DNA from: a virus
Virus record (IMG/VR): IMGVR_UViG_3300045988_163643
Span: 64,001 to 128,000 of that record
Strand: one strand, 5' to 3'
Length of the DNA stretch: 64,000 nt
Shown here: positions 17,588 through 34,725 of the stretch, in pieces
How positions within the stretch are numbered: the first letter of the stretch is position 1
Layout of the letters: each line of letters begins with the position of its first letter
The notes under the pieces: model-generated
The model's database searches: none
Seen by the model: only the letters and a program-made list of their open reading frames with translations
What the model was told of the DNA's origin: nothing
Position numbers and translations under genes: made by a program

Positions 17588-17953
17588 TTAATCCTCTTCT
17601 ATTATTTCTTCATATTCTGCAATTGTAACTTCATTGTATATTTCATTTACCATGTACTCAAAAGCTAACCAACTTAGGTTATTAGCATCTACTTCAAAGT
17701 TAGGACTTAAGTTGTCTTTTACATTATTATATATTTCAAATATTTCTTCCATATGTTTAATAAAAAAGCATTTAGTTTCAGATAAGTAAATTAACTCTGA
17801 AACCATACCACTTGAACAACCATATTGAAGAACTTCTTCTAAAAATGCCATTGGATTTTCATAATCATCAATATGATTAAGAATTATATCAATAACATTA
17901 TCCTTTAGTTCGTTTTCTCCATACATATTTTCTAAAAAAGTATTTAATTTCAT
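17588..17953 (-). CDS. YGC(S/I)SG-motif acidic protein, paralog family member
   Basis: About 60% identical by eye to 21777..22133 (LQYGCSSGMVSELIY...NNLSWLAFEYM). Confidence 0.55.
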   Translation of the reverse strand: MKLNTFLENMYGENELKDNVIDIILNHIDDYENPMAFLEEVLQYGCSSGMVSELIYLSETKCFFIKHMEEIFEIYNNVKDNLSPNFEVDANNLSWLAFEYMVNEIYNEVTIAEYEEIIEED

Positions 17954-20918: not shown

Positions 20919-21713
20919 TTAAATTTCTTCTTCTTCCATACTTTCTATATTATTTACTTTATTTTCAATAATCAAAAAGAATTCGTTTGCTATTGATTCA
21001 AAAGTTGCCCATACTATTTCAGTATAATTGAATTTATTGATAGATATTTCATCTTTTTCAATTAATGTATTAAAGTAATTTTGTATTTCATCTAAATTAT
21101 TTATGAAGAATTTTTTTATATTAGTATTATATTTTAACTCAAATATTGCTTCAGAGCAACCATTTTTTCTAAATTCATCTATGAATTCTTTAACATGATT
21201 TAAGCATTCAAAAGTCTTAATATATTTTTCTAATATATCTAATACTTCATTTTTTAAATTACTTTTACTTCTTAATTCTTCTTCCATTGTAATTAATAAA
21301 GTGTCCATTTTTTTATTATTGTCTATGTCTTCTTCCATGCTCTCGACAAAATTTATTTCATCTTCTATTTCATAGAAAAATTCTTTTGCTATGAATTCAA
21401 AAGTTACGGAAGCTATTTCAGTATAATTGAATTCATAGATAGATATTTCACCTTTTTCAATTAATGTATTAAAGTAATTTTGTATTTCATCTAAATTATT
21501 TATGAAGAATTCTTTTCTATTATTATAACGCATTAATTCAGGTATTACACCTATTAAGCTGACACCTTCCATAAAGTCCCTAACTTCTTCTAAATCTTTA
21601 CATTCTTTAATATGATTTATTAACATATCTAATACTTCATTTTTCAAATTACTTTCTTCCTTCATGTCTTCTATACCATTTAATAACATTTCTATTTTTT
21701 CACTATTTCTCAT
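20919..21713 (-). CDS. tandemly duplicated YGC-family-related protein
   Basis: Two internal repeats (NEVLDM/ILINHIKE...FFINNLDEIQNYFNTLIEK(G/D)EISI) related to 17588 and 21777. Confidence 0.55.
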   Translation of the reverse strand: MRNSEKIEMLLNGIEDMKEESNLKNEVLDMLINHIKECKDLEEVRDFMEGVSLIGVIPELMRYNNRKEFFINNLDEIQNYFNTLIEKGEISIYEFNYTEIASVTFEFIAKEFFYEIEDEINFVESMEEDIDNNKKMDTLLITMEEELRSKSNLKNEVLDILEKYIKTFECLNHVKEFIDEFRKNGCSEAIFELKYNTNIKKFFINNLDEIQNYFNTLIEKDEISINKFNYTEIVWATFESIANEFFLIIENKVNNIESMEEEEI

Positions 21714-21776: not shown

Positions 21777-22133
21777 TTAAACTTCTTCTTCTTCCATTGT
21801 TTCAACTTCATTATATATTATACTTGTCATATATTCAAAAGCTAACCAACTTAAATTATTTGCGTTTACTTCAAAATCAGGACTTAAATTATCTTTAAGT
21901 TGATTGTAAATGTCGAATATTTCTTCTATATGTTTAATGAAGAAACATTTTGTTTCATTAAAGTATATTAATTCAGGCACTGTACCACTAATACAACCGT
22001 AATTCATAACATCTTCTAAAAATCCTTTTTCTACTTCATAATTTTCTATATTGTTTAAGATTATATCAATAACACTATCCTTTAATTCGCTTTCTCCATA
22101 TAAATTATTTAATAATTCACTATATTTTTTCAT
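21777..22133 (-). CDS. YGC(S/I)SG-motif acidic protein, paralog family member
   Basis: MNYGCISGTVPELIYFNETKCFFIKHIEEIF...NNLSWLAFEYM. Confidence 0.55.
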   Translation of the reverse strand: MKKYSELLNNLYGESELKDSVIDIILNNIENYEVEKGFLEDVMNYGCISGTVPELIYFNETKCFFIKHIEEIFDIYNQLKDNLSPDFEVNANNLSWLAFEYMTSIIYNEVETMEEEEV

Positions 22134-22249: not shown

Positions 22250-22582
22250 TTATTCTTCAATTTTAAAATTCTTTATCTCAAGTCCATAATTGACTTGAGA
22301 CTTTCTATTTGTGTATTTTTTAACTTTTGCCCTAAATGTCAACTTTTGTCCTTCTTTAATGTTTTCCTTAAATATTTTCTTTGTAACACTACTTATCATG
22401 TCACAAAGACAATGACAACATATAAAATCATTGTTTTGATATATATTGTTTATCAATGCAACTTTTCTACACCCTCTTTTTTCAATTCGGTTAAAAGTTC
22501 CTTTGAATTCGACAATACTATCATTTAGTTTTTCAAGTTCTTTTCTATATTCATATCTTCCGTTTTTAGAATTAATATACAT
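22250..22582 (-). CDS. hypothetical protein (first gene of the leftward arm)
   Basis: 110 aa, SD AAGGGGGA. Confidence 0.5.
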   Translation of the reverse strand: MYINSKNGRYEYRKELEKLNDSIVEFKGTFNRIEKRGCRKVALINNIYQNNDFICCHCLCDMISSVTKKIFKENIKEGQKLTFRAKVKKYTNRKSQVNYGLEIKNFKIEE

Positions 22583-22599
22583 TTAAAATCCCCCTTTTT

Positions 22600-23040
22600 T
22601 TAACAAACAAGGGATTTTATAATTCCTATACCTTTTCCTATAACTGAAAAGGAAAAAATCCTTTTCCGTTTTTTTTAGGAGGAGGGAACATATTTAATTA
22701 TATAATAGGATTTTTATCATTGACCTCCTATGCCCTTGTAAATAGTCAATGACTGTTAAGTACTAAAACCTAACTTTTGATTATTACCTTATAACCCTCT
22801 GAGCACTTTTCAAAAGTTCCGACTTAAAAAGTATGAGTTCGTAAGTACTTATTAGAATTAATCTAACAGTTTACCTATATAACCTTTGATAATAGGGTTT
22901 TTATCAAAAGCACCTTTTAAGTTTTCCCTTTTGCCAGTTACCTAAAAGTTGTAAGATAATGCTTAATTCTATCAGGTGATATATTAAGCTTCTATTATAT
23001 ACCCTAAGCGTATAGCTTAAGGATTTTTTATTTCTTTTAT
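22600..23040 (-). other. ~0.4-kb untranslated leader / candidate structured RNA downstream of the triple promoter
   Basis: No ORF on either strand. Visibly higher GC than its surroundings. Several local hairpins (CCTTAAGC..GCTTAGGG, CTTTGATAATAGGGTTTTTATCAAAG, GGAGG..CCTCC). Confidence 0.3.
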
Positions 23041-23047
23041 TACCTTA

Positions 23048-23076
23048 ATTGTATCAGGTCTTTTATTTAATGTCAA
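23048..23076 (-). promoter_or_regulatory. early promoter P1, TTGACA-17-TACAAT
   Basis: Exact -35; part of a ~100-bp module repeated three times. Confidence 0.6.
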
Positions 23077-23150
23077 GTACTTTTTAAAAATCTTTTAAAA
23101 CTTTTTAAGTAGCTCCTAAGTTGTTTTCCTAAGTTGTTATTTATACTTAT

Positions 23151-23179
23151 ATATTATCATGTCTTTTATCTAATGTCAA
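23151..23179 (-). promoter_or_regulatory. early promoter P2, TTGACA-17-TAATAT
   Basis: Same module, including the AAACTTTTAAAACTTTTTAAGT...CCTAAGTTGTT repeat. Confidence 0.55.
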
Positions 23180-23249
23180 CTATTTTTTTTAAAAAACTTT
23201 TAAAACTTTTTAAGTGCTTTCCTAAGTTGTTATTTATTTTATTAACTTA

Positions 23250-23278
23250 ATTGTATTTAACCTCTTATCTAATGTCAA
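23250..23278 (-). promoter_or_regulatory. early promoter P3, TTGACA-17-TACAAT
   Basis: Third copy of the module. Confidence 0.6.
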
Positions 23279-23299
23279 CTATTTTTTTTATGTTTTTTT

Positions 23300-23420
23300 A
23301 TGTTTTTTGTATACATTAAAATGAATATTGTATTTTTTATATTGTATACATTATTTTGTATATTGTATTTTGAATAATGAATTTTGTATATTGTTTAATG
23401 TATACAGTATACCTATACTC
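23300..23420. repeat. TGTATA(C/T)-type short-motif array, block 1
   Basis: TGTATACA, TGTATATTGTAT and ATGTATACAGTATAC motifs, closely spaced. Confidence 0.7.
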
Positions 23421-23596
23421 TTTTATATTGATTTTCAAAATTCATATTTCTATTTTATTTTTTTCTAATATTGCCGTGTGACGTGATATAAGGCAATTTA
23501 AGGATTTTCAGAGCAGTTACTGTATAATTTATTCAATTGATTAATATATCCTCTTATATTGCCTTATATGGATACATGAAAACTTTTAAAAAATTA

Positions 23597-23624
23597 TTGA
23601 CATTAAATAAAGTTATGCTATCAT
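23597..23624 (+). promoter_or_regulatory. candidate promoter TTGACA-16-TATCAT
   Basis: Exact -35, imperfect -10. About 45 nt upstream of the small ORF. Confidence 0.4.
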
Positions 23625-23667
23625 TATATTAAATATTAATAAAATTAAATAAAGGTGGTTGATTGAA

Positions 23668-23865
23668 TTGAAGAAATATAGTATAGAAATAAAAGGCAAT
23701 ATATGGACAAGAGAATTAATTATAAATATATGCAGGGAAAAATCAATTAAATATAATGTAACAGAGTTATTAAGTGGATTAAAATATTGTATGCAATTAA
23801 ATGATTTAGGCTTTTGGGACTATCATTATTTCAATAGACTTAAAAAAATAGAAGAGAAAAAATAG
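23668..23865 (+). CDS. 65-aa hypothetical protein (TTG start)
   Basis: GGTGG SD 9 nt upstream of TTG 23668. Followed directly by a terminator. Confidence 0.4.
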   Translation: MKKYSIEIKGNIWTRELIINICREKSIKYNVTELLSGLKYCMQLNDLGFWDYHYFNRLKKIEEKK

Positions 23866-23891
23866 TAGAGACTGCTCTGCTATTTTTTTTA
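23865..23891 (+). terminator. rho-independent terminator
   Basis: AGTAGAG-ACTG-CTCTGCT stem followed by a T8 run. Confidence 0.6.
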
Positions 23892-24090
23892 TTGTATATA
23901 TGAATAACTGTTCATATGTTTATATGTTTAATTGTATGCAATATACTATATAATGCATCATGTATACAATATAATATATCATGTATTGTTTATTATGTAT
24001 AGTGTATAATGTATGCAATATTATGCATATTGTATCTTGTATGCAATATATAATATACTGTATGTAATATTATGTATATTGTATTATATT
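23890..24090. repeat. TGTAT(A/G)CAATAT array, block 2
   Basis: TGTATACAATATAAT at 23961. TGTATGCAATAT at 23933, 24010 and 24040. Confidence 0.75.
23897..23916. promoter_or_regulatory. palindrome ATATGAA-TAACTG-TTCATAT (SOS-box-like)
   Basis: 7-bp perfect arms. Related copies at 24528-24549, 24602-24622, 24662-24681 and 24929-24948. Confidence 0.5.
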
Positions 24091-24424
24091 AGTTAACTTG
24101 TAAACTATTATCATATTGATAATAAATAATACTTGACAAATAAACAGTTGTTCTGTAATCGAACGTAGCATATTTTATAATGTTTGTCAACAGTTATTTT
24201 TAGCTAAAAAGTTTAGTATAAGTAAACAATGCAAGTGTGAAACCATTGAAAATACTATATTATCATATTGATAAATTTACAAATACTAAGAAAAAATCAT
24301 GACCCATTTAAATCGATTCTAAGAGGGCGAACAAAATCCCTCTTTATAGTTAATCCTTTATATGAAGTCACTCTATACAGAGCTTTAAAATCGACGGTAA
24401 AAGGTCGGTATATATTTTTAAAAA

Positions 24425-24900
24425 GGTGACTATACATTTTATTGTATGTAATATATTGTATACAATTTATTATCATAATGATAATATATGAATAGATATT
24501 CAGGTATTCATATATAGAATTGTATAACATATGAATAACTGTTCATATGTTTAATTATTCAATCGTATTAGTTGATTTGTGAACTACTATCAATATGATA
24601 ACATATGAGTGATTGTTCATATAATATGTATAATGTATACAATATAATGTACTATGTATACGTATGAGTAACTGTTCATATATTCATATATATACTGTAT
24701 AGTGTATAATGTTTATTGTATACAATATAATATACTATGTATGATATATTATGTATGTTGTACTATGTATACAATATAATGTATAGTGTACTATGTACTA
24801 TGTATGGTGCATGATATGTAGTGTACTATGTATGGTGTATACAATATAATGTACTATGTATGATATACTATGTATGTTGTACTATGTATACAATATAGTT
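24425..24900. repeat. TGTATACAATATA array with ~115-bp tandem duplication, block 3
   Basis: TGTATACAATATA at 24634, 24717, 24766, 24836 and 24886. Long repeat GTACTATGTATGATATA(T/C)TATGTATGTTGTACTATGTATACAATATA occurs twice. Confidence 0.8.
24528..24549. promoter_or_regulatory. palindrome CATATGAA-TAACTG-TTCATATG
   Basis: 8-bp perfect arms. Confidence 0.5.
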
Positions 24901-24969
24901 GATAAGTGAACTATTATCAATATGATAACATATGAGTTACTGTTCATACGTTCATATGATAGTATGATA

Positions 24970-24981
24970 GAACAACTGTTC
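24970..24981. promoter_or_regulatory. perfect GAAC-N4-GTTC (Cheo/LexA-box-like)
   Basis: Reads GAACAACTGTTC. A reverse-orientation GAACAACTGTTT lies at ~24145-24156. Confidence 0.4.
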
Positions 24982-25173
24982 CTATGATGTTCTATGTTAG
25001 TAGAACATATGGTACAATAATCGAACTGCATAGAATTGATTGTAAGGCGTTTGCGTGATGTTCTTCTTATGTTACATCGTTGATAGTGTTCCTTCTCTTA
25101 TATTGCCTTGTATTGCCTCATAAGGTTACATTGAAAAAATTAGTGTATTAGAGAAAAAATTTTCATAGGATTG

Positions 25174-25202
25174 TTGACACGGAAAAGGGTAACTGCTATA
25201 AT
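25174..25202 (+). promoter_or_regulatory. consensus sigmaA promoter TTGACA-17-TATAAT
   Basis: Both hexamers perfect, 17-nt spacer. Confidence 0.7.
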
Positions 25203-25239
25203 TATGTTAATAAAAGATAAATAAAAGGGAGTTGATAGT

Positions 25240-25401
25240 ATGAAGAAGTTATTATTTGTTTTGGTGATTTTAGGAGTTATGGTGATTTTTAAGGACTGCT
25301 TATTAATAGGTTTAATGGATATTGTTGATTTTGTGGGTAACTTGTTTAACTTGAATACCGTTGTATTAATTGACTTCTTAAATAATTTATATTATTTATA
25401 A
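25240..25401 (+). CDS. 53-aa hydrophobic peptide
   Basis: MKKLLFVLVILGVMVIFKDCLLIGLMDIVDFVGNLFNLNTVVLIDFLNNLYYL. SD AAGGGAG. Perfect promoter and strong terminator. Below the track cutoff. Confidence 0.5.
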   Translation: MKKLLFVLVILGVMVIFKDCLLIGLMDIVDFVGNLFNLNTVVLIDFLNNLYYL

Positions 25402-25408
25402 GAGGAAT

Positions 25409-25441
25409 AAGTGGGATATATTTTATCCCACTTATTTTTTT
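25409..25441 (+). terminator. rho-independent terminator
   Basis: AAGTGGGA...TCCCACTT stem followed by a T-run. Confidence 0.7.
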
Positions 25442-25464
25442 ATGAAATATGCTCAGGTGATTTT

Positions 25465-25615
25465 ATGTATATTGTATGGTGTGTGGTGAATAGTGTATAC
25501 AGTATTTTTTATTATGTATAATGTATTGTTTATTGTATTGTATATTGTATTATGTATTGTATTATGTTTATTGTATAATGTATTGTATAATGTATAATGT
25601 ATATTATGTATATAT
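25465..25615. repeat. TGTAT-type array, block 4
   Basis: Runs of ATTGTAT, ATGTATAATG and TTGTATAATG. Confidence 0.7.
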
Positions 25616-25685
25616 GGTGATATAAAAGAATTTTATATATTTTTATAAAATATTATATTTTAAAAAGCCAGTGCTCTGTATAAAA

Positions 25686-25770
25686 TTTTAGGGAATTTTG
25701 TGGGGAATTTTAGGGAATTTTAGGGAATTTTAAGGATTTTATAGGGGGACTCTGAAAATTTTGTGGGATA
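25686..25770. repeat. helically phased GGGAATTTT(A/G) repeats
   Basis: Six to seven units at 10-12 bp spacing (TAGGGAATTTT, GTGGGGAATTTT, ...). Confidence 0.75.
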
Positions 25771-26160
25771 TATAATAGGGGGTGGGTCGGGAAAAATCCC
25801 ACCAAGGATTTTATATGTACAGGATTTTAAAAAACAGTTCTTAGAGAACTATTTACAAATTCGACACGAAGGGGGTAGTTTATGTATAATTCGACAAAAT
25901 TCTACACAAATATGAGTCTAGTCCCTTTATCTACACACTATTAAATTTCATCAAAATATTATTAAATTTCACTAATATTTCATCAATATTAAATTTACAA
26001 GATTAATCATATATAAAAATAATACTCTAAAACGCACTATAAAAATACATCACATTGTATACACAACATTGTATACACGATTGTACATTACCACACCACC
26101 ATCCATACACCACCTATTCCCCTATAACAAGCAATGAAATAAAAAGGAGGGGGGTACTTT

Positions 26161-26271
26161 ATGATAATATCAATTATCAAATCAATAATATCACTTCCCC
26201 TTATATACACTATCCCAATAAAATCCAATAAAAATAACTTAAAAATAACTATAAAAAACGTACTATTTTAA
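26161..26271 (+). CDS. candidate 36-aa peptide
   Basis: Strong AGGAGGGGGG SD ~10 nt upstream of the ATG. No promoter identified. Confidence 0.25.
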   Translation: MIISIIKSIISLPLIYTIPIKSNKNNLKITIKNVLF

Positions 26272-26409
26272 ATCAATTTCAGTATATTTTTAATCAAAAA
26301 CATACCATTTTCGACCAATTTTGTTACATTTTTGTACCATTTTAACCTAAAATAATCATAAAATATACGATATACCATATAAAAAGTAATGTATCAAAAT
26401 CATATAAAG

Positions 26410-26454
26410 TTATCCACAATTTCAACAAAGTTATCCACAGAATAATGTGGATTA
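26410..26454. promoter_or_regulatory. DnaA-box cluster
   Basis: Two perfect TTATCCACA boxes (26410-26418, 26431-26439) and one inverted 8/9 box, TGTGGATTA (26446-26454). Confidence 0.6.
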
Positions 26455-26538
26455 AAAATAACGATAAATCACGAAAATATTAATATGTCTATTTTTATAA
26501 TCCCTCAAATCTCATTTTTTAAAGGTAAATAAAAAAAA

Positions 26539-26592
26539 TGTACGGTTAACCGAATAAGAAAAAATCCTACAAAAAATACATGGTTAACCGTA
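26539..26592. repeat. 12-bp inverted repeat GTACGGTTAACC / GGTTAACCGTAC
   Basis: Perfect arms, 30-bp spacer. Each arm contains the palindrome GGTTAACC. Confidence 0.8.
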
Positions 26593-26667
26593 CTCAAGAA
26601 ATTAAAACAAATAAAATACATGATTAATGATATATAAAAACGATATAACATTATTGATGCTTAAAAA

Positions 26668-26700
26668 GAGTAAAAAAATAACCTACTTATAATAGTAGGC
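26668..26700 (-). terminator. terminator downstream of the fibre operon
   Basis: CCTACT...AGTAGG stem with a T-run on the minus strand. Similar to the hairpin at 36962. Confidence 0.55.
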
Positions 26701-26749
26701 TATCTTAATTTATCTTTTTTCTTACGCAATTGATTCATATTGTGTAAAT

Positions 26750-29700
26750 TTATTCACTTGTTGTAAAATCACCTGTTCCTAAATTATTATAATAAATCTT
26801 ATTTACAGTATCATACATACAAATAACATTAGCTTTAGTCTTTACAGGTATTAAGTCTAATATCTGTTGCCCATTTCTAGTTATTGTACAAGCATATAAT
26901 TTCATTGCACATTTTGTACTATTTTCACAACTTCCATTACTTGAATGTTGTCCGAATAAATATAAAGATAGTGTATTGTTGTCATTAAGTAATTGACAGT
27001 TATAAGTTTGACCATTGAATGATATTACTCTATTATTTAATGAATACTCATCAATATCATTAGAAATAGTTTCATCATAAGTGTTTGTGCTTACCATATC
27101 AATTCTATATTTATTATTAATAACTACTAATTGGCATCCCTGGTTCTCAAGACCATTACCATAAGCATCACCAAAAGGTATTGACGTTTTTATAAAGTTT
27201 AAAGGTTTAAATTTCACATACAAGCTATCTGTGTCAAAATTCAAAGTAACTCCAGTATCTATATATTGATTTCCATCACTTTGAATATAATTTAATTGAG
27301 TAAAATCATCTGATGTAATAGTACTTTTACAAGACACATTTATTACTATATCTCCGGTAACATTATTTATATTAATATTTCCTTGTGAATAAACTGTACT
27401 TGTAATATCAGTTCCACCCATAGTTACTGTTACTGTGTCATAAGTGCATCCACTGACAGGTGTGATTGTTGCACTATAAGACCCCCCTATTTTACAATAA
27501 GTACTATTGTTACTTGTTGTACATTTATTTAAAGTATTAACTACTTTTGCAAAAGTACCGTTTTTACTTGTTTCATATAAATACATTTTATTTAATTCTT
27601 CACTAGTTAAAACCCTATTATATATTTCATGTGAATAATAAATAAAGTTTACCCCTTCTCCTATTTTACCAATTATAAAATCAAGAGTGTTATCTGTAGT
27701 TAATGAATATCTATCATTTGTTCCTTCGTATTTTAATTCGCCATTCACATACACTTTACCACTATTCCCTTGTCTAGTCATTGCAATACTCATAAATCTA
27801 TCATATTTCATATCGCTTAAAGGATTATTACCCTCGTTTTCTCCATTTATGAACACAGGAGAAGTGACGCCGGTTTGCATAGCTTTCAATGACCATCCTG
27901 ATTCCGAAGCAGATTGATTAGCTCTTTTACCACATATAATGTGAGTAGCATTACTAAAACCGTGTACATTTATAATTACTGTAAAATCATTAGTTCCAAA
28001 ATTAAAATTATCACCAAAATTAATAGTTGCACTTGAATTTGTTAAATCTAAACCTCCCTTAGTCAATGTAGTTCCTATATAAGAACCTGTTCCAACAATT
28101 GAAGAATTTACTTTATCAACAATTTTATTTGTACTGAAATCATAATCTTCAACATCACAATGTCCTATTAGCCCTTGCGATACAAAACTATTAGATATTC
28201 CACTAACAGTAATATTACAAGTTGCACTTTGACTTCCACAAGTTGCAGTAATAGTACATTGTCCATTTGATGTAGGTGTCACAACTCCATTTTCAACAGT
28301 ACATATACCAGTAGGATTTGCTGACCAAATAACTTCGTCTGTAGTATCACTAGGAGTTAATGTAGCAGTTATCGTTTGTGGTGTTGTATCAGTAAATGTT
28401 AAAGTATTATTATTTAATACAATATTAGTACAAGGCTTATCTTCTTTAACTCCACTTACAGTAACATTACAAGTAGCAGTTTTAGTTCCACAAGTAGCAG
28501 TAATAGTACAATTTCCATCTTTAATCGGTGTTACAACACCTTTATTGACAGTTACTATACCAGTAGGAGTTACACTCCATGTAACTGTATCTGTTGTATT
28601 AGTAGGAGCTAATGTAGCGGTTAATGTTTGACTGTCTGTTGTTGTAAATGATAATGTTGTATTATTTAAAGTTATATTAGTACAAGCTACAGTTTCTTTA
28701 TATTTATTGTCTAAATAAGATATTCTTTGTTTAATCCACGTATACATACTATCAATATCATCTGTTTTATTAATTCTATTTGACCATTTACTTCTTTCTT
28801 TGGTTATATTTTCAGTCCCCCAAATTGATTGAAATGCTCTAAATTGATTTATAATCCTACTTACATTTATTGTCCCATTATTTCTTAATTCCCAATATCT
28901 TTGGCTTATTTCATTAAAATAATTACTATATAATTTATTCCATACTGGATTAGTCTTAGTATATTGACAATTAAGTAAATCTGTTGTAGGTTTGCTTGGA
29001 TGATAAGATATACCAGCATTTTGGAATAACCCAAATATTATGTCTAAATCATACCAGCACATATACCATTTTGACCCATCCCATGTAGCAATAGTCCAAT
29101 TGTTAATCATACTATCAGTTGCACAAGCTAAATCTGCAAATACCCAATAATTAATCGCATTTTGTAAAATTAGATGTTCCTCAAAATGTGCTTTAAAATC
29201 ACTATCACTTGAATTATTTATAAAATTTAGCAAATCAGTTAATTTACCTTGAATTTCTGATGTTTCAGTTCCATCACTTCTATATTCAAAATTAGATAAT
29301 ACTAGACTTCCTAAACCACTTCTATATACTATATTTGTTAATGGATTTTTTTTACTGTTCATTCCAAATAAATCATCATCCTGTTTTATATTAAGAGTAT
29401 AACACCCATTAAATTCTCCGTTTAAATATAAAATAACAGGCTTAGATTTTACTGTAATCGGAGCGTCTACTGGAAATGTAGTATTATCAAAATCCCACAC
29501 CATTTGTGCTCCTACAGAATTTCTTACCATTGAATAATCAGCATAATTACATTTTAAATGGTATGTGCTTGTAGCATAATCAAATATTTTTATTTTTTTC
29601 TTATTTCCTTCAACGTCTTTAAGTTTTAAACTTAAATTTTTATTAGGATATTGTAAACTTCCGCTACCTTGCCATGTGGTTGTTGATTTTCCTTGAAATA

Positions 29701-29989
29701 CTGTAGAACCATATTCATCAACATACAAAATATCTAATTGTACTGGATTAGTTTTGCTTATACCTGTAGTATCACCATCTAAATAAATTATTCCACATGG
29801 ATATGATTGAATTTTAGGTACTATACCATTCTCAACTTTCTTCGCAATATCTTTATATTGCGTATTAAGTTTGTCAACATCACTTTTAATATTATTTATG
29901 TCAGTTTTAATATTATCTAATCCTTCAATATTATTATTTGAATTCTCATTATTATTAATAAAACCAAATTTATTATCTTTATCAAACAT
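26750..29989 (-). CDS. tail fibre / receptor-binding protein with CotH-like, 2x Big_2 and LamG-like domains
   Basis: CotH-like KNLSLKLKD...YHLKCNYADYSMVRNSVGAQM...ILYLNGEFNGCY...WYDLDIIFG. Two TxTATLxPxxTTDxVxWS...TITATCG Ig-like repeats. LamG-like FTVIINVHG...VYVNGELKYEG...IYNRVLTSEELNKMY. N-terminal MFDKDNKFGFI shared with 30011..31654. Confidence 0.7.
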   Translation of the reverse strand: MFDKDNKFGFINNNENSNNNIEGLDNIKTDINNIKSDVDKLNTQYKDIAKKVENGIVPKIQSYPCGIIYLDGDTTGISKTNPVQLDILYVDEYGSTVFQGKSTTTWQGSGSLQYPNKNLSLKLKDVEGNKKKIKIFDYATSTYHLKCNYADYSMVRNSVGAQMVWDFDNTTFPVDAPITVKSKPVILYLNGEFNGCYTLNIKQDDDLFGMNSKKNPLTNIVYRSGLGSLVLSNFEYRSDGTETSEIQGKLTDLLNFINNSSDSDFKAHFEEHLILQNAINYWVFADLACATDSMINNWTIATWDGSKWYMCWYDLDIIFGLFQNAGISYHPSKPTTDLLNCQYTKTNPVWNKLYSNYFNEISQRYWELRNNGTINVSRIINQFRAFQSIWGTENITKERSKWSNRINKTDDIDSMYTWIKQRISYLDNKYKETVACTNITLNNTTLSFTTTDSQTLTATLAPTNTTDTVTWSVTPTGIVTVNKGVVTPIKDGNCTITATCGTKTATCNVTVSGVKEDKPCTNIVLNNNTLTFTDTTPQTITATLTPSDTTDEVIWSANPTGICTVENGVVTPTSNGQCTITATCGSQSATCNITVSGISNSFVSQGLIGHCDVEDYDFSTNKIVDKVNSSIVGTGSYIGTTLTKGGLDLTNSSATINFGDNFNFGTNDFTVIINVHGFSNATHIICGKRANQSASESGWSLKAMQTGVTSPVFINGENEGNNPLSDMKYDRFMSIAMTRQGNSGKVYVNGELKYEGTNDRYSLTTDNTLDFIIGKIGEGVNFIYYSHEIYNRVLTSEELNKMYLYETSKNGTFAKVVNTLNKCTTSNNSTYCKIGGSYSATITPVSGCTYDTVTVTMGGTDITSTVYSQGNININNVTGDIVINVSCKSTITSDDFTQLNYIQSDGNQYIDTGVTLNFDTDSLYVKFKPLNFIKTSIPFGDAYGNGLENQGCQLVVINNKYRIDMVSTNTYDETISNDIDEYSLNNRVISFNGQTYNCQLLNDNNTLSLYLFGQHSSNGSCENSTKCAMKLYACTITRNGQQILDLIPVKTKANVICMYDTVNKIYYNNLGTGDFTTSE

Positions 29990-33618: not shown

Positions 33619-34725
33619 ATGTTAAAAGCATATAAATTTAGATTATATCCAAATAAAGAACAAGAAGAACTAATTCAAAAAACTTTTGGTTGTTGTAGAT
33701 TTGTCTATAATCAAACATTATCTTATAGAAAAGAAATATATGAAACACAAAAAAAATCTATGAATAAAACTTCTTGTAACGATTATTGCAATCAAGTTCT
33801 TAAAAAGGAATATAAATGGTTAAAAGAAGTTGATAAATTTGCTCTTACAAATGCAATTTATAATATGAATTCTGCATATCAAAGATTTTTCAAAGGATAT
33901 TCTAATTATCCAAAATTCAAAAGTAAACGAAATAATAAAAAATCATATTCTACTAATTTTACTAATAACAATATTGAAATATCCTTTGAGAGCAATAAAA
34001 TCAAACTTCCAAAACTTAAATGGGTTAAAACTAAAATTCATCGTGAGTTTGTAGGTAAAATTAAATCAGCAACTGTTTCACAAGTTTCTAGTGGTAAATA
34101 TTATATATCTATATTAGTAGAGCAAGAAATAAAAGAATTACCTAAAAATGAATTTACAGTTGGTATAGATTTAGGATTGACTGATTTTGCTATAACTAGC
34201 GATGGAGTTAAGTATAGTAATCCTAGATATTTACGAAAATCATTAAATAAATTAGCTAAAGAACAAAGAAAATTATCTAGGAAGAAAAAAGGTAGTAAAA
34301 ATAGAAATAAACAAAGAATAAAAGTTGCTAGGGTGCATGAGAAAATAACTAATCAAAGAAAAGATTTCTTACATAAATTATCTTCTGAACTTATAAACGA
34401 AAACCAAGTAATATGTTTAGAAGATTTACAAGTAAAAGAGATACAACAAAATAAATATTTATCTCAATCTGTATCAGATGTTGGTTGGTATGAATTTAGA
34501 AGACAATTAGAGTATAAAGCTAAATGGTATGGTAGAACAATATCTTTTGTTGATAAATGGTATCCTTCTAGTCAAATATGTAGTAATTGTGGAAATAATA
34601 CTGGTAAAAAAACATTAGATATAAGAGAATTTGATTGTCCATATTGCGGAAGACATCATGATAGAGATATAAATGCAAGTATTAATATATTAAATGAAGG
34701 ATTGAGAATATTAAATAATAAATAA
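33619..34725 (+). CDS. tnpB: TnpB (IS200/IS605-family OrfB, RuvC-like RNA-guided nuclease)
   Basis: MLKAYKFRLYPNKEQEELI N-terminus. RuvC D (GIDLGLTDFA), E (ICLEDLQV), zinc finger CSNCG...CPYCG, and D (HDRDINASINI). Confidence 0.85.
   Translation: MLKAYKFRLYPNKEQEELIQKTFGCCRFVYNQTLSYRKEIYETQKKSMNKTSCNDYCNQVLKKEYKWLKEVDKFALTNAIYNMNSAYQRFFKGYSNYPKFKSKRNNKKSYSTNFTNNNIEISFESNKIKLPKLKWVKTKIHREFVGKIKSATVSQVSSGKYYISILVEQEIKELPKNEFTVGIDLGLTDFAITSDGVKYSNPRYLRKSLNKLAKEQRKLSRKKKGSKNRNKQRIKVARVHEKITNQRKDFLHKLSSELINENQVICLEDLQVKEIQQNKYLSQSVSDVGWYEFRRQLEYKAKWYGRTISFVDKWYPSSQICSNCGNNTGKKTLDIREFDCPYCGRHHDRDINASINILNEGLRILNNK

What the first reader, a model, noticed from the sequence alone, without database searches (positions are those of the whole stretch)
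25860..26700. DnaA-box cluster in a G-poor, ORF-free stretch - candidate origin or DnaA trap
Two perfect TTATCCACA boxes lie 21 bp apart, with an inverted 8/9 box within 45 bp (26410-26454). They are embedded in ~0.8 kb that is strikingly G-poor on the + strand and lacks ORFs of 60 aa or more. The phased repeats lie upstream and a 12-bp GGTTAACC-containing inverted repeat lies downstream. DnaA boxes combined with iterons and AT-rich DNA are the organisation of plasmid/P1-type theta origins. In a phage this would imply recruitment or titration of host DnaA, or a phage-plasmid lifestyle.
Basis: partly seen in the sequence, partly recalled or inferred. Interest (0 to 1): 0.65.

Follow-up and report, generated by a model that had tools for sequence, protein, structure and literature searches.

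The report
Conserved DnaA-box trio in gut phage
A ~200-kb phage common in human gut metagenomes keeps three binding sites for the host's replication initiator DnaA, unchanged across relatives and next to strongly curved DNA, so the sites are real, but the sequence cannot say whether they act as a replication origin, a regulatory switch or something else.

Summary
Two perfect TTATCCACA boxes sit at 26410 and 26431, each inside a 12-bp AAGTTATCCACA repeat. An inverted 8/9 box sits at 26446-26454. Chance does not explain this: 0 of 400 simulations gave two perfect boxes within 50 bp.

In ten distinct relatives about 80% identical, 0 of 27 box bases vary, while 4 of 18 spacer bases do. The boxes adjoin the strongest helically phased A/T-tract signal in the 64-kb window (26200-26400). 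The same box geometry occurs in 35 bacterial genomes, 19 of them beside dnaA.

Not supported:
- The G-poverty is ordinary for this genome (27th percentile).
- There are no DnaA-trios, no outstanding unwinding element, and no rep or par gene in the window.
- The heptad repeats lie 0.8 kb away.
- phiCD211 has no perfect box or cluster, and a 50-kb stretch of a c-st-like plasmid has none.

My best reading (0.36) is a DnaA-loading site of a plasmid-type origin complex. The rivals are a DnaA-responsive transcription switch, a T5-iss-like element, and a DARS- or datA-like modulator. It is a new member of a known kind. AAGTTATCCACA pairs occur in more than 119 unrelated phage contigs.

The parts
26407..26418 (+). 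DnaA box 1: perfect TTATCCACA at 26410-26418, with an AAG 5' flank
   Evidence: Invariant in 10 distinct relatives.
26421..26429 (+). Possible weak middle box TTCAACAAA (5/9). If real, it would make a contiguous array spaced 10-11 bp.
   Evidence: Read from the sequence. Only 1 of the 12 spacer bases varies. Many unrelated phage loci have a degenerate or perfect box in this middle position. This part is an inference.
26428..26439 (+). DnaA box 2: perfect TTATCCACA at 26431-26439, with an AAG flank
   Evidence: Invariant.
26446..26454 (-). DnaA box 3: TAATCCACA (8/9), convergent with box 2 across a 6-bp spacer
   Evidence: The box is invariant while 3 of the 6 spacer bases vary (GAATAA, GAATGA, AGATAA).
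26445..26487 (.). Longest invariant run in the aligned 26140-26715 block (43 nt): box 3 plus 33 nt to its right (26455-26487), of unknown role
26200..26400 (.). About 16 A/T-tracts spaced 10-11 bp, predicted to be intrinsically curved DNA, directly left of box 1
   Evidence: The five strongest phased 120-bp windows of the whole 64 kb all start at 26201-26281. 26250-26400 is 78-92% conserved.
26391..26400 (.). 10-bp segment present only in this window (GTATCAAAAT), between the curved DNA and box 1. It is one helical turn long.
   Evidence: Alignments.
26540..26593 (-). 12-bp inverted repeat GTACGGTTAACC / GGTTAACCGTAC. On the - strand it is followed by T8, so it looks like a terminator. It also forms two of three units of about 20 bp spaced about 40 bp apart (26530-26549, 26572-26590, 26610-26630).
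   Evidence: (D15). It lies in the invariant runs 26532-26556 and 26558-26593, broken only at 26557. No compensatory changes were found.
26675..26706 (-). Intrinsic terminator of the 1079-aa CotH-domain gene (26750-29989, - strand)
26161..26271 (+). Small hydrophobic ORF behind a strong SD (AAAGGAGGGGGG). It is 36 aa here and 21 aa in 8 of 10 relatives.
25955..26140 (.). Poorly conserved, indel-rich segment. One relative carries an ORF-bearing insertion of about 700 bp here.
25836..25850 (-). Conserved palindrome AGTTCTTAGAGAACT at the GC-skew flip. On the - strand it forms an 8-bp stem followed by a T-run, so it looks like a terminator.
25460..25731 (+). The 'phased repeats upstream': a 7-bp TGTATNN array (25460-25620) and GGGAATTTT repeats (25684-25731)
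   Evidence: D1, D14.
22583..26749 (.). The 4.1-kb ORF-poor regulatory gap that holds all of the above. It is about as conserved as the flanking genes.

Best explanation
The three boxes (perhaps four) form a high-affinity landing pad for the host initiator DnaA. I think this pad most likely nucleates a plasmid-type (theta) replication-origin complex of this ~200-kb phage.

Proposed mechanism:
1. DnaA binds boxes 1 and 2 on one face of the helix, and binds box 3 head-to-head with box 2.
2. The adjoining ~200 bp of phased A/T-tracts supplies a fixed bend. This would stand in for IHF, which Firmicutes lack according to my own knowledge, and would wrap the complex.
3. DnaA then recruits the host helicase-loading proteins DnaD, DnaB and DnaI, or phage equivalents encoded outside the window.
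4. The palindromic GGTTAACC repeats to the right would be sites for a phage-encoded partner.

Shown: the boxes, their conservation, their geometry, the curvature and the insulating terminators.

Inferred: DnaA binding, unwinding, helicase loading and any link to a plasmid state.
For: - Two perfect boxes within 50 bp never arose in 400 simulations.
- 0 of 27 box bases vary in 10 distinct relatives, against 4 of 18 spacer bases (Fisher p = 0.02). The background rate in the conserved block is 61 of 354, giving P = 0.006 for 0 of 27.
- The strongest phased A/T-tract signal in the 64 kb abuts the boxes. The only indel between the curved DNA and the boxes is 10 bp, one helical turn.
- The exact geometry TTATCCACA-N12-TTATCCACA-N6-TGTGGAT occurs in 35 bacterial genomes. 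Among the nearest large ORFs, 19 are dnaA and 15 are dnaN. One case lies inside the dnaA-dnaN oriC of a 22%-GC Clostridium MAG.
- Terminator-like hairpins bracket the block.
- Portal homologues lie in 26 non-mobilizable plasmids of roughly 120-210 kb in Clostridioides, Clostridium, Bacillus and lactobacilli (sizes from the 15 records listed), so this phage's distant kin live as plasmids (PMC5786514).
- Contigs of about 200 kb start at arbitrary points, as expected for a circular or circularly permuted genome.
- Around box pairs in 71 unrelated phage loci, phased A-tracts and low-stability DNA are enriched: 38% fall in the top decile (p = 3e-10). The control was not matched for intergenic DNA.
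Against: - No DnaA-trio-like run was found anywhere in the gap. The textbook Firmicute arrangement (two boxes, CTA trios, AT-rich DNA) is clear in the Clostridium oriC but absent here.
- DNA next to the boxes is not unusually easy to melt. The least stable 40-mer in the gap lies 750 bp away.
- There are only three boxes, against 10 + 5 in clostridial oriC (PMC5749712).
- No initiator, helicase loader or partition gene lies in the 64-kb window.
- phiCD211 has no perfect box and no cluster, and a 50-kb stretch of a c-st-like plasmid has none.
- The local GC-skew flip has terminus polarity. The cumulative skew minimum of the window is near 33 kb.
- In 127 ORFs flanking box pairs in other phages, packaging genes (about 10) outnumber replication genes (about 6).
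Confidence: 0.36

Rival explanations
1. DnaA-responsive transcription switch. Host DnaA, acting as a transcription factor, represses or blocks a small transcription unit in the gap. This would let the phage sense the host's replication state, alongside the LexA-like boxes elsewhere in the same gap.
For: - The gap is a regulatory hub. It holds strong sigma-70-type promoters, terminators and small ORFs. By my own reading of those sequences it also holds GAAC-N4-GTTC motifs.
- Two or three boxes is typical of DnaA-regulated promoters (PMC11317965, PMC8203912).
- A -10-like hexamer (AATAAT, GATAAT or AATGAT) persists between boxes 2 and 3 in all variants.
- On the - strand, TTAATA-17-TATTTT (8/12) would start transcription inside box 3, read by eye.
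- A leftward terminator at 25836-25853, downstream of the strong leftward terminator at 26520-26593, implies that some transcript starts between them.
Against: - No candidate promoter reaches 9/12 at the boxes.
- The -35 candidates are poor and there is no extended -10.
- The curved DNA has no clear promoter downstream of it.
- The 43-nt invariant run goes well beyond what operator sites need.
Confidence: 0.24
2. T5-iss-like boundary element. The boxes would bind membrane-associated DnaA to pause or anchor the entering genome at the inner edge of a first-expressed block of small genes, or mark the edge of a terminal repeat.
For: - T5-like phages carry 8 DnaA boxes in a large, conserved, repeat-rich untranslated region next to their pre-early genes (bioRxiv 10.1101/866236).
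- Here a 4.1-kb repeat-rich untranslated gap borders more than 35 small genes. These genes are all transcribed away from three tandem strong promoters at 23048-23278.
- The boxes lie beyond those promoters, as a stop signal would need.
- In other phages, box pairs often sit beside terminase or portal genes, which is near genome ends.
Against: - The role of DnaA in T5 is itself an untested proposal.
- The T5 layout, four pairs spaced 3 bp apart inside inverted repeats, is not found here.
- The terminase and portal genes are about 30 kb away.
- The physical genome ends are unknown.
Confidence: 0.12
3. Host-DnaA modulator. The element would be either a DARS-like sequence that regenerates ATP-DnaA or a small datA-like sink. 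In either case it would act once the phage genome is present in many copies, to disturb or exploit host initiation.
For: - The topology equals the E. coli DARS1 core read from the genome: TTATCCACT-5-TGTGGATAA-3-TGTGTATTA.
- In both, a perfect central box has a convergent 8/9 partner and a third box in the same direction (PMC6868365).
Against: - The spacings differ: 6 and 12 bp here against 5 and 3 bp in DARS1.
- To my knowledge DARS has not been reported in Firmicutes.
- Three boxes would titrate little DnaA.
- Neither idea explains the curved DNA or the invariant flank.
Confidence: 0.1
4. Operator for a phage-encoded DNA-binding protein that only happens to resemble the DnaA box, or a hairpin acting at the RNA or ssDNA level.
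For: - Box 2 and box 3 form a 7-bp palindrome, ATCCACA-N6-TGTGGAT. The terminator scan reported it as a hairpin.
- The invariant flank suggests further contacts.
Against: - The sequence is an exact 9/9 consensus twice, with the G-flank of clostridial oriC boxes.
- The same 12-mer pair occurs in more than 119 unrelated phage contigs of 24-63% GC.
- No T-run follows the hairpin.
- No compensatory changes and no Rfam match were found, although the RNAalifold run began at 26448, just right of this hairpin.
Confidence: 0.08

Closest known systems
DnaA-box arrays of Firmicute chromosomal origins (oriC around dnaA-dnaN, including the basal unwinding system)
   Same: It has consensus TTATCCACA boxes with a 5' G. 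The identical box-N12-box-N6-inverted-box geometry occurs in 35 bacterial genomes, mostly beside dnaA or dnaN.
   Different: There are only 3 boxes. There are no DnaA-trios, no GC clamp plus AT-rich unwinding element next to the boxes, and no dnaA or dnaN gene.
DnaA-assisted plasmid and phage-plasmid theta origins (P1 oriR, pSC101, F, RK2 type)
   Same: A few DnaA boxes sit beside bent DNA and other repeated protein sites in a mobile element whose distant relatives live as plasmids.
   Different: There is no adjacent rep gene and no tandem 17-22-bp iterons. The repeats present are three ~20-bp units 40 bp apart, plus 7-bp arrays 0.8 kb away.
Injection-stop (iss) region of phage T5 and relatives
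   Same: DnaA boxes lie in a large, conserved, repeat- and palindrome-rich untranslated region beside a block of small early-type genes.
   Different: T5 has 8 boxes in pairs spaced 3 bp apart within inverted repeats in the terminal repeat. Here there are 3 boxes in another layout, and the genome ends are unknown.
E. coli DARS1/DARS2 core
   Same: There are three boxes. The central box is perfect, it is convergent with an 8/9 partner, and the third box is co-directional (PMC6868365).
   Different: The spacers are 6 and 12 bp instead of 5 and 3 bp. The host phylum is different and no activity data exist.

Membership tests
Chromosome-type oriC with basal unwinding system (Firmicutes) | Two adjacent co-directional DnaA boxes followed by a run of DnaA-trios (5'-CTA/TTA repeats on the box strand) | tested here: not met
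   No run of 5 or more [C/T/A]TA triplets was found on either strand in 22500-27000. The Clostridium MAG oriC shows the expected TACTACTACTACTACTAA run.
Chromosome-type oriC with basal unwinding system (Firmicutes) | AT-rich unwinding element directly next to the boxes or trios | tested here: not met
   40-bp stability next to the boxes lies at the 16th-93rd percentile of the window. The least stable 40-mer in the gap is at 25620-25660.
Chromosome-type oriC with basal unwinding system (Firmicutes) | Many boxes (about 10 + 5 in clostridia) flanking dnaA/dnaN | tested here: not met
   There are three boxes with at most 1 mismatch and no local excess of boxes with at most 2 mismatches. No dnaA or dnaN gene is in the window. 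The box count for clostridia comes from PMC5749712.
DnaA-assisted iteron-plasmid / P1 oriR-type origin | One or more consensus DnaA boxes at the edge of the origin | tested here: met
DnaA-assisted iteron-plasmid / P1 oriR-type origin | Tandem iterons bound by a Rep protein encoded next to them | tested here: not met
   Only three ~20-bp units at 40-bp spacing are present (D15). No rep-like Pfam or PHROG hit was found among 62 window ORFs. A Rep protein encoded outside the window is not excluded.
DnaA-assisted iteron-plasmid / P1 oriR-type origin | Supports autonomous replication | not testable with these tools
   This needs a cloning experiment in a suitable host.
T5-type injection stop region | Large conserved untranslated repeat-rich region beside small early genes | tested here: met
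   The 4.1-kb gap is 60-100% conserved per 50 bp, similar to the flanking genes. For the repeats and for the gene block.
T5-type injection stop region | Eight boxes as four pairs spaced 3 bp apart, placed in inverted repeats | tested here: not met
   Three boxes with spacers of 12 and 6 bp. For the T5 layout.
T5-type injection stop region | Lies inside a long terminal repeat | not testable with these tools
   No reads or virion end data are available. Contig start points vary.
DARS (DnaA-reactivating sequence) | Three boxes, with I and II convergent, II perfect, and III co-directional with II | tested here: met
   Compared with MG1655 DARS1 read directly from the genome.
DARS (DnaA-reactivating sequence) | 5-bp and 3-bp spacers; promotes ADP release from DnaA | tested here: not met
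   The spacers are 6 and 12 bp. The activity cannot be tested here.
datA / DnaA-box-cluster titration site | Cluster of at least 4-5 high-affinity boxes able to hold many DnaA molecules | tested here: not met
   Three boxes and no weak-box enrichment.
DnaA-regulated promoter | Boxes overlapping or just downstream of a functional promoter | tested here: inconclusive
   Only weak matches of 8/12 or less overlap the boxes. No expression data are available.

The most novel reading that the evidence does not exclude
The boxes would belong to a widespread, essentially unstudied phage strategy. Consensus AAGTTATCCACA pairs 21 bp apart occur in more than 119 unrelated viral contigs of 24-63% GC. They are almost always intergenic, often lie beside packaging genes, and in three separate lineages lie close to DUF7222 genes. 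In this reading phages use membrane- or origin-associated host DnaA for something other than classical origin firing. Candidates are anchoring or pausing the incoming genome (as proposed for T5), sensing the host replication cycle, or DARS-like recharging of DnaA.
Probability: 0.15. Interest if true: 0.8.

Novelty: new member of a known kind. Interest (0 to 1): 0.45.

Why it matters
This phage family is abundant in human gut metagenomes: one of its proteins is indexed in 559 blocks of the collection, on many contigs of about 200 kb, including Hadza samples and sets that look like infant-gut or Western cohorts. Nothing is known about how it replicates or persists.

A strictly conserved host-DnaA site gives a concrete, testable handle. 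Read-depth profiles from existing metagenomes could show whether replication starts here. DnaA dependence would tie phage replication or gene control to the host cell cycle.

More broadly, the survey shows that consensus DnaA-box pairs are common in phage intergenic DNA. The open literature I could search discusses them mainly for T5, as an untested model, and in passing for phage G as an origin prediction.

Tried and rejected
- **Sequence similarity.** Megablast and blastn of the gap against 50,697 phage records found no match. Blastn of 26140-26720 against plasmids gave only a 65-bp low-value hit.
- **RNA families.** Rfam on 20-30 kb gave only a chance miRNA hit.
- **Structured RNA in 26448-26660.** The z-score is about -3 on both strands, but it is driven by the 12-bp inverted repeat. 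No pair shows a compensatory change and the covariation term is unfavourable.
- **Coding potential.**
  - The 38-aa minus-strand ORF across the GGTTAACC repeats has no SD. By my reading of the peptides, its changes are mostly non-synonymous.
  - The 34-aa minus-strand ORF is frameshifted in the window.
  - Both were rejected as genes.
- **DnaA-trios and wider weak-box enrichment.** Both were absent.
- **More distant relatives through the flanking 110-aa protein.** All 20 homologues are at least 80% identical, so nothing more distant was reached.
- **Family-wide trait.** phiCD211 has no perfect box and no cluster. The 150-200 kb stretch of C. botulinum p1, which includes tubZ/tubR, has none.
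- **Prophage or plasmid copy in isolates.** The three-box pattern found no copy of this phage in 185,579 species genomes.
- **DUF7222 function.** The AlphaFold model is confident (pLDDT 89.6), but there is no PDB fold match (best E = 1.4) and no sequence match.
- **Circularity check with the ORF at 189-956.** It failed because the product is not on record. The ORF at 1045-1359 was used instead.
- **First simulation script.** It timed out and was rerun.

Full report
**What the window is**

The window is phage DNA of about 24% GC. It encodes a portal protein, a RecD-like helicase, an SbcD-like exonuclease, endolysins, anti-repressors, a sigma factor and an HU-like protein. The same sequence lies on a 197,740-bp metagenome scaffold. 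Close relatives lie on contigs of 147-208 kb from many human gut metagenomes, with the homologous genes at arbitrary positions along the contigs. That pattern fits a circular or circularly permuted genome of about 200 kb.

The portal is only 21-31% identical to any deposited phage. The nearest are the large plasmid-like siphoviruses of C. difficile (phiCD211 group) and SPbeta-like phages. Homologues also sit in 26 non-mobilizable plasmids; the 15 listed run from about 120 to 210 kb and include C. botulinum c-st-like elements.

**Checking the observation**

- TTATCCACA occurs at 26410 and 26431 on the + strand, and TAATCCACA at 26446-26454 on the - strand.
- The direct repeat is 12 bp, AAGTTATCCACA, 21 bp start to start.
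- The window has 3 perfect boxes, against a simulated mean of 0.88. None of 400 simulated sequences had two within 50 bp.
- No ORF of 60 aa or more lies in 25860-26700.
- The 12-bp inverted repeat is at 26540-26551 and 26582-26593.
- The G-poverty is not special. The stretch is 8.1% G, the 27th percentile of all windows of that size, and no lower than the + strand over any minus-strand gene block.
- What is unusual is a sharp skew flip at about 25850, centred on a conserved palindrome.
- The stretch is the right-hand fifth of a 4.1-kb ORF-poor gap (22583-26749). The gap is full of 7-bp repeat arrays, strong promoters, terminators and two small expressed-looking ORFs.

**Conservation**

Ten distinct versions of the region were aligned, about 77-86% identical overall.

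- All 27 box bases are invariant.
- 4 of the 18 spacer bases vary. In particular, 3 of the 6 bases between boxes 2 and 3 vary.
- The background in the conserved block is 61 variable sites of 354. This gives P = 0.006 for no variation in the boxes, and Fisher p = 0.02 for boxes against spacers.
- In 50-bp bins across the 4.1-kb gap and its left flank (six sequences), 26400-26499 is among the best conserved at 98-99%.
- In the ten-sequence alignment of 26140-26715, the longest invariant run is 43 nt (26445-26487), covering box 3 and 33 nt to its right.
- By contrast, 25955-26140 is riddled with indels, and one relative has an ORF insertion of about 700 bp there.

The boxes are under selection.

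**Anatomy around the boxes**

- The strongest 10-11-bp phased A/T-tract signal in the whole 64 kb is at 26200-26400, directly left of box 1. The top five 120-bp windows are all there. This predicts strongly curved DNA.
- The only indel between this segment and the boxes is 10 bp, one helical turn.
- To the right lie three ~20-bp units about 40 bp apart. Two of them form the GGTTAACC inverted repeat.
- On the minus strand that inverted repeat is followed by T8, so it looks like a second terminator behind the terminator of the CotH-domain gene.
- A further leftward terminator-like hairpin sits at 25836-25853.
- No DnaA-trio run and no excess of weak boxes were found. No unusually meltable DNA lies next to the boxes.
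- No convincing promoter overlaps the boxes.
- Neither Rfam nor covariation analysis supports a structured RNA.

**Comparison with bacteria**

The exact geometry box-N12-box-N6-inverted box occurs in 35 of 185,579 species genomes, where I estimate about 0.001 would be expected by chance. Among the nearest large ORFs at these loci, 19 are dnaA and 15 are dnaN.

In a 22%-GC Clostridium MAG the module lies in the dnaA-dnaN spacer. It sits upstream of a textbook unwinding unit of two boxes, a GC clamp, (CTA)n trios and AT-rich DNA.

The phage element therefore looks like the DnaA-binding part of a clostridial origin without the unwinding part. None of the 35 hits is the phage itself, so the species-representative genome set holds no copy of this element.

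**Comparison with known DnaA elements**

- **DARS1.** E. coli DARS1, read from the MG1655 genome, is TTATCCACT-5-TGTGGATAA-3-TGTGTATTA. Its topology matches the phage trio, but its spacers differ (PMC6868365).
- **T5-like phages.** They carry eight boxes in a large conserved untranslated repeat region next to their pre-early genes, and these boxes are proposed, though not shown, to stop DNA injection. The setting here is alike: the gap borders more than 35 small genes driven leftward by three tandem strong promoters. The box layout differs.
- **Related phage-plasmids.** phiCD211 has no perfect box and no cluster of three near-matches, and a 50-kb stretch of a c-st-like plasmid around tubZ/tubR has no perfect box or close pair. 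The trait is therefore specific to this lineage.

**Survey of other phages**

- In most of the 94 non-redundant loci no ORF of 90 aa or more spans the pair, so the pairs are largely intergenic.
- Many loci have a further box in the middle of the 21-bp interval.
- The flanking ORFs are diverse. Packaging genes (about 10) are somewhat more frequent than replication genes (about 6).
- The surroundings are enriched for phased A-tracts and low-stability DNA (38% in the top decile, p = 3e-10), though the control was not matched for intergenic DNA.
- DUF7222 genes lie within 1 kb of the boxes in two unrelated lineages, and at the edge of the gap here.
- The DUF7222 fold is confidently predicted as all-helical but matches nothing solved.

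**Verdict**

The boxes are real, selected and almost certainly DnaA sites. Their function is not settled by sequence.

| Reading | Weight |
|---|---|
| Landing pad of a plasmid-type origin complex | 0.36 |
| DnaA-responsive transcription control | 0.24 |
| T5-like boundary or anchoring element | 0.12 |
| DARS- or datA-like modulation of host DnaA | 0.10 |
| Site for a phage protein, or a hairpin | 0.08 |

The origin-complex reading rests on the box geometry shared with oriC regions, the helical phasing, the adjoining curved DNA, the palindromic repeats, the flanking terminators and the plasmid-living relatives.

Read-depth profiling of this abundant phage in existing gut metagenomes would be the quickest decisive test.

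Noticed in passing
window 21777-22133(-), 20919-21713(-), 17588-17953(-); L024 152-505; L020 6282-6644; also L085, L113, L057, L082: DUF7222 (PF23864) small acidic proteins sit at the edge of the gap here. In two unrelated phage lineages of 38-41% GC they lie 0.4-1 kb from AAGTTATCCACA pairs and near terminase genes. No paper mentions the family. The AlphaFold model is confident (pLDDT 89.6, six helices) but has no PDB fold match.
   Followed up: partly
IMG/VR loci L005-L123: The 12-mer pair AAGTTATCCACA-N9-AAGTTATCCACA occurs in more than 119 unrelated viral contigs of 24-63% GC. It is largely intergenic and often has a third box in the middle. Arrays reach 19 near-consensus boxes (at most one mismatch) on one strand within about 630 bp (L034).
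   Followed up: partly
window 24950-24999 and 23896, 24484, 24527, 24601, 24660, 24928: LexA (Cheo-box)-like GAAC-N4-GTTC motifs. A perfect one (AGAACAACTGTTCC, about 24968-24981) lies in the only 50-bp bin of the gap that is 100% conserved. There are also six copies of an ATGA(A/G)TAACTGTTCAT family. This suggests SOS control in the same gap.
   Followed up: no
window 23048-23278 (-): Three tandem repeats of about 100 bp each carry a near-consensus promoter (TTGACA-17-TACAAT or TAATAT). All point at the block of more than 35 small minus-strand genes (1-22582).
   Followed up: no
window 23270-23400, 23920-24090, 24680-24920, 25460-25620, inverted at 26045-26095: Arrays of 7-bp TGTATNN repeats (spacings of 14 and 21 bp) recur about every 600-700 bp through the gap. 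Two of them follow the terminators of the small ORFs. They resemble heptad operator arrays, but no binding protein is known.
   Followed up: no
window 25400-26100, centre about 25845: There is a GC-skew flip from +0.69 to -0.6 around the conserved palindrome AGTTCTTAGAGAACT. The two arms carry mirrored repeat families (heptads, GGGAATTTT / AAATTTCA, GGTGTGTGGTG / CCACACCACC), forming an imperfect palindrome of about 800 bp. The right arm is poorly conserved.
   Followed up: partly
window 25240-25401 (+), 23659-23865 (+), 26161-26271 (+): These are small hydrophobic ORFs of 53 aa, about 66 aa and 21-36 aa. The first two have their own consensus promoter, and the first and third a strong SD. They look like moron-type or toxin-type genes. 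The third lies where a leftward (antisense) transcript is inferred, since a leftward terminator sits downstream at 25836-25853, which recalls type I toxin-antitoxin loci.
   Followed up: partly
window 24130-24420 (+): An 86-95% conserved noncoding stretch lies between a TTGACA-containing promoter-like site and a terminator (24390-24409). It is a candidate small RNA with no Rfam match.
   Followed up: no
window 33619-34725 (+): A TnpB / IS605 OrfB-family gene (HTH_OrfB_IS605, OrfB_IS605, Cas12f1-like TNB) lies at the point where gene orientation switches. Relatives carry further copies elsewhere (L181, L182).
   Followed up: no
L133 (= L040) at window about 25955-26140: One relative has an insertion of about 700 bp that encodes an ORF (starting MSLKNKHIGKEKYNNYN...), possibly a homing-endonuclease-like gene, inside the variable arm next to the conserved block.
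   Followed up: no
window 26750-29989 (-) versus L173-L177, L129-L133: The gene directly right of the conserved block is swapped between relatives: a 1079-aa protein with CotH kinase, Ig-like and laminin-G domains here, and a Glyco_transf_92 cassette in others. The boundary of the swap is at about 26650.
   Followed up: partly
whole phage family: The family is widespread in human gut metagenomes. Record names suggest Hadza, infant-gut and Western cohorts. The 104-aa protein of 1045-1359 is indexed in 559 blocks of the collection. No copy was seen in 185,579 species-representative genomes through the three-box pattern. The host is unknown, presumably a low-GC Firmicute.
   Followed up: partly
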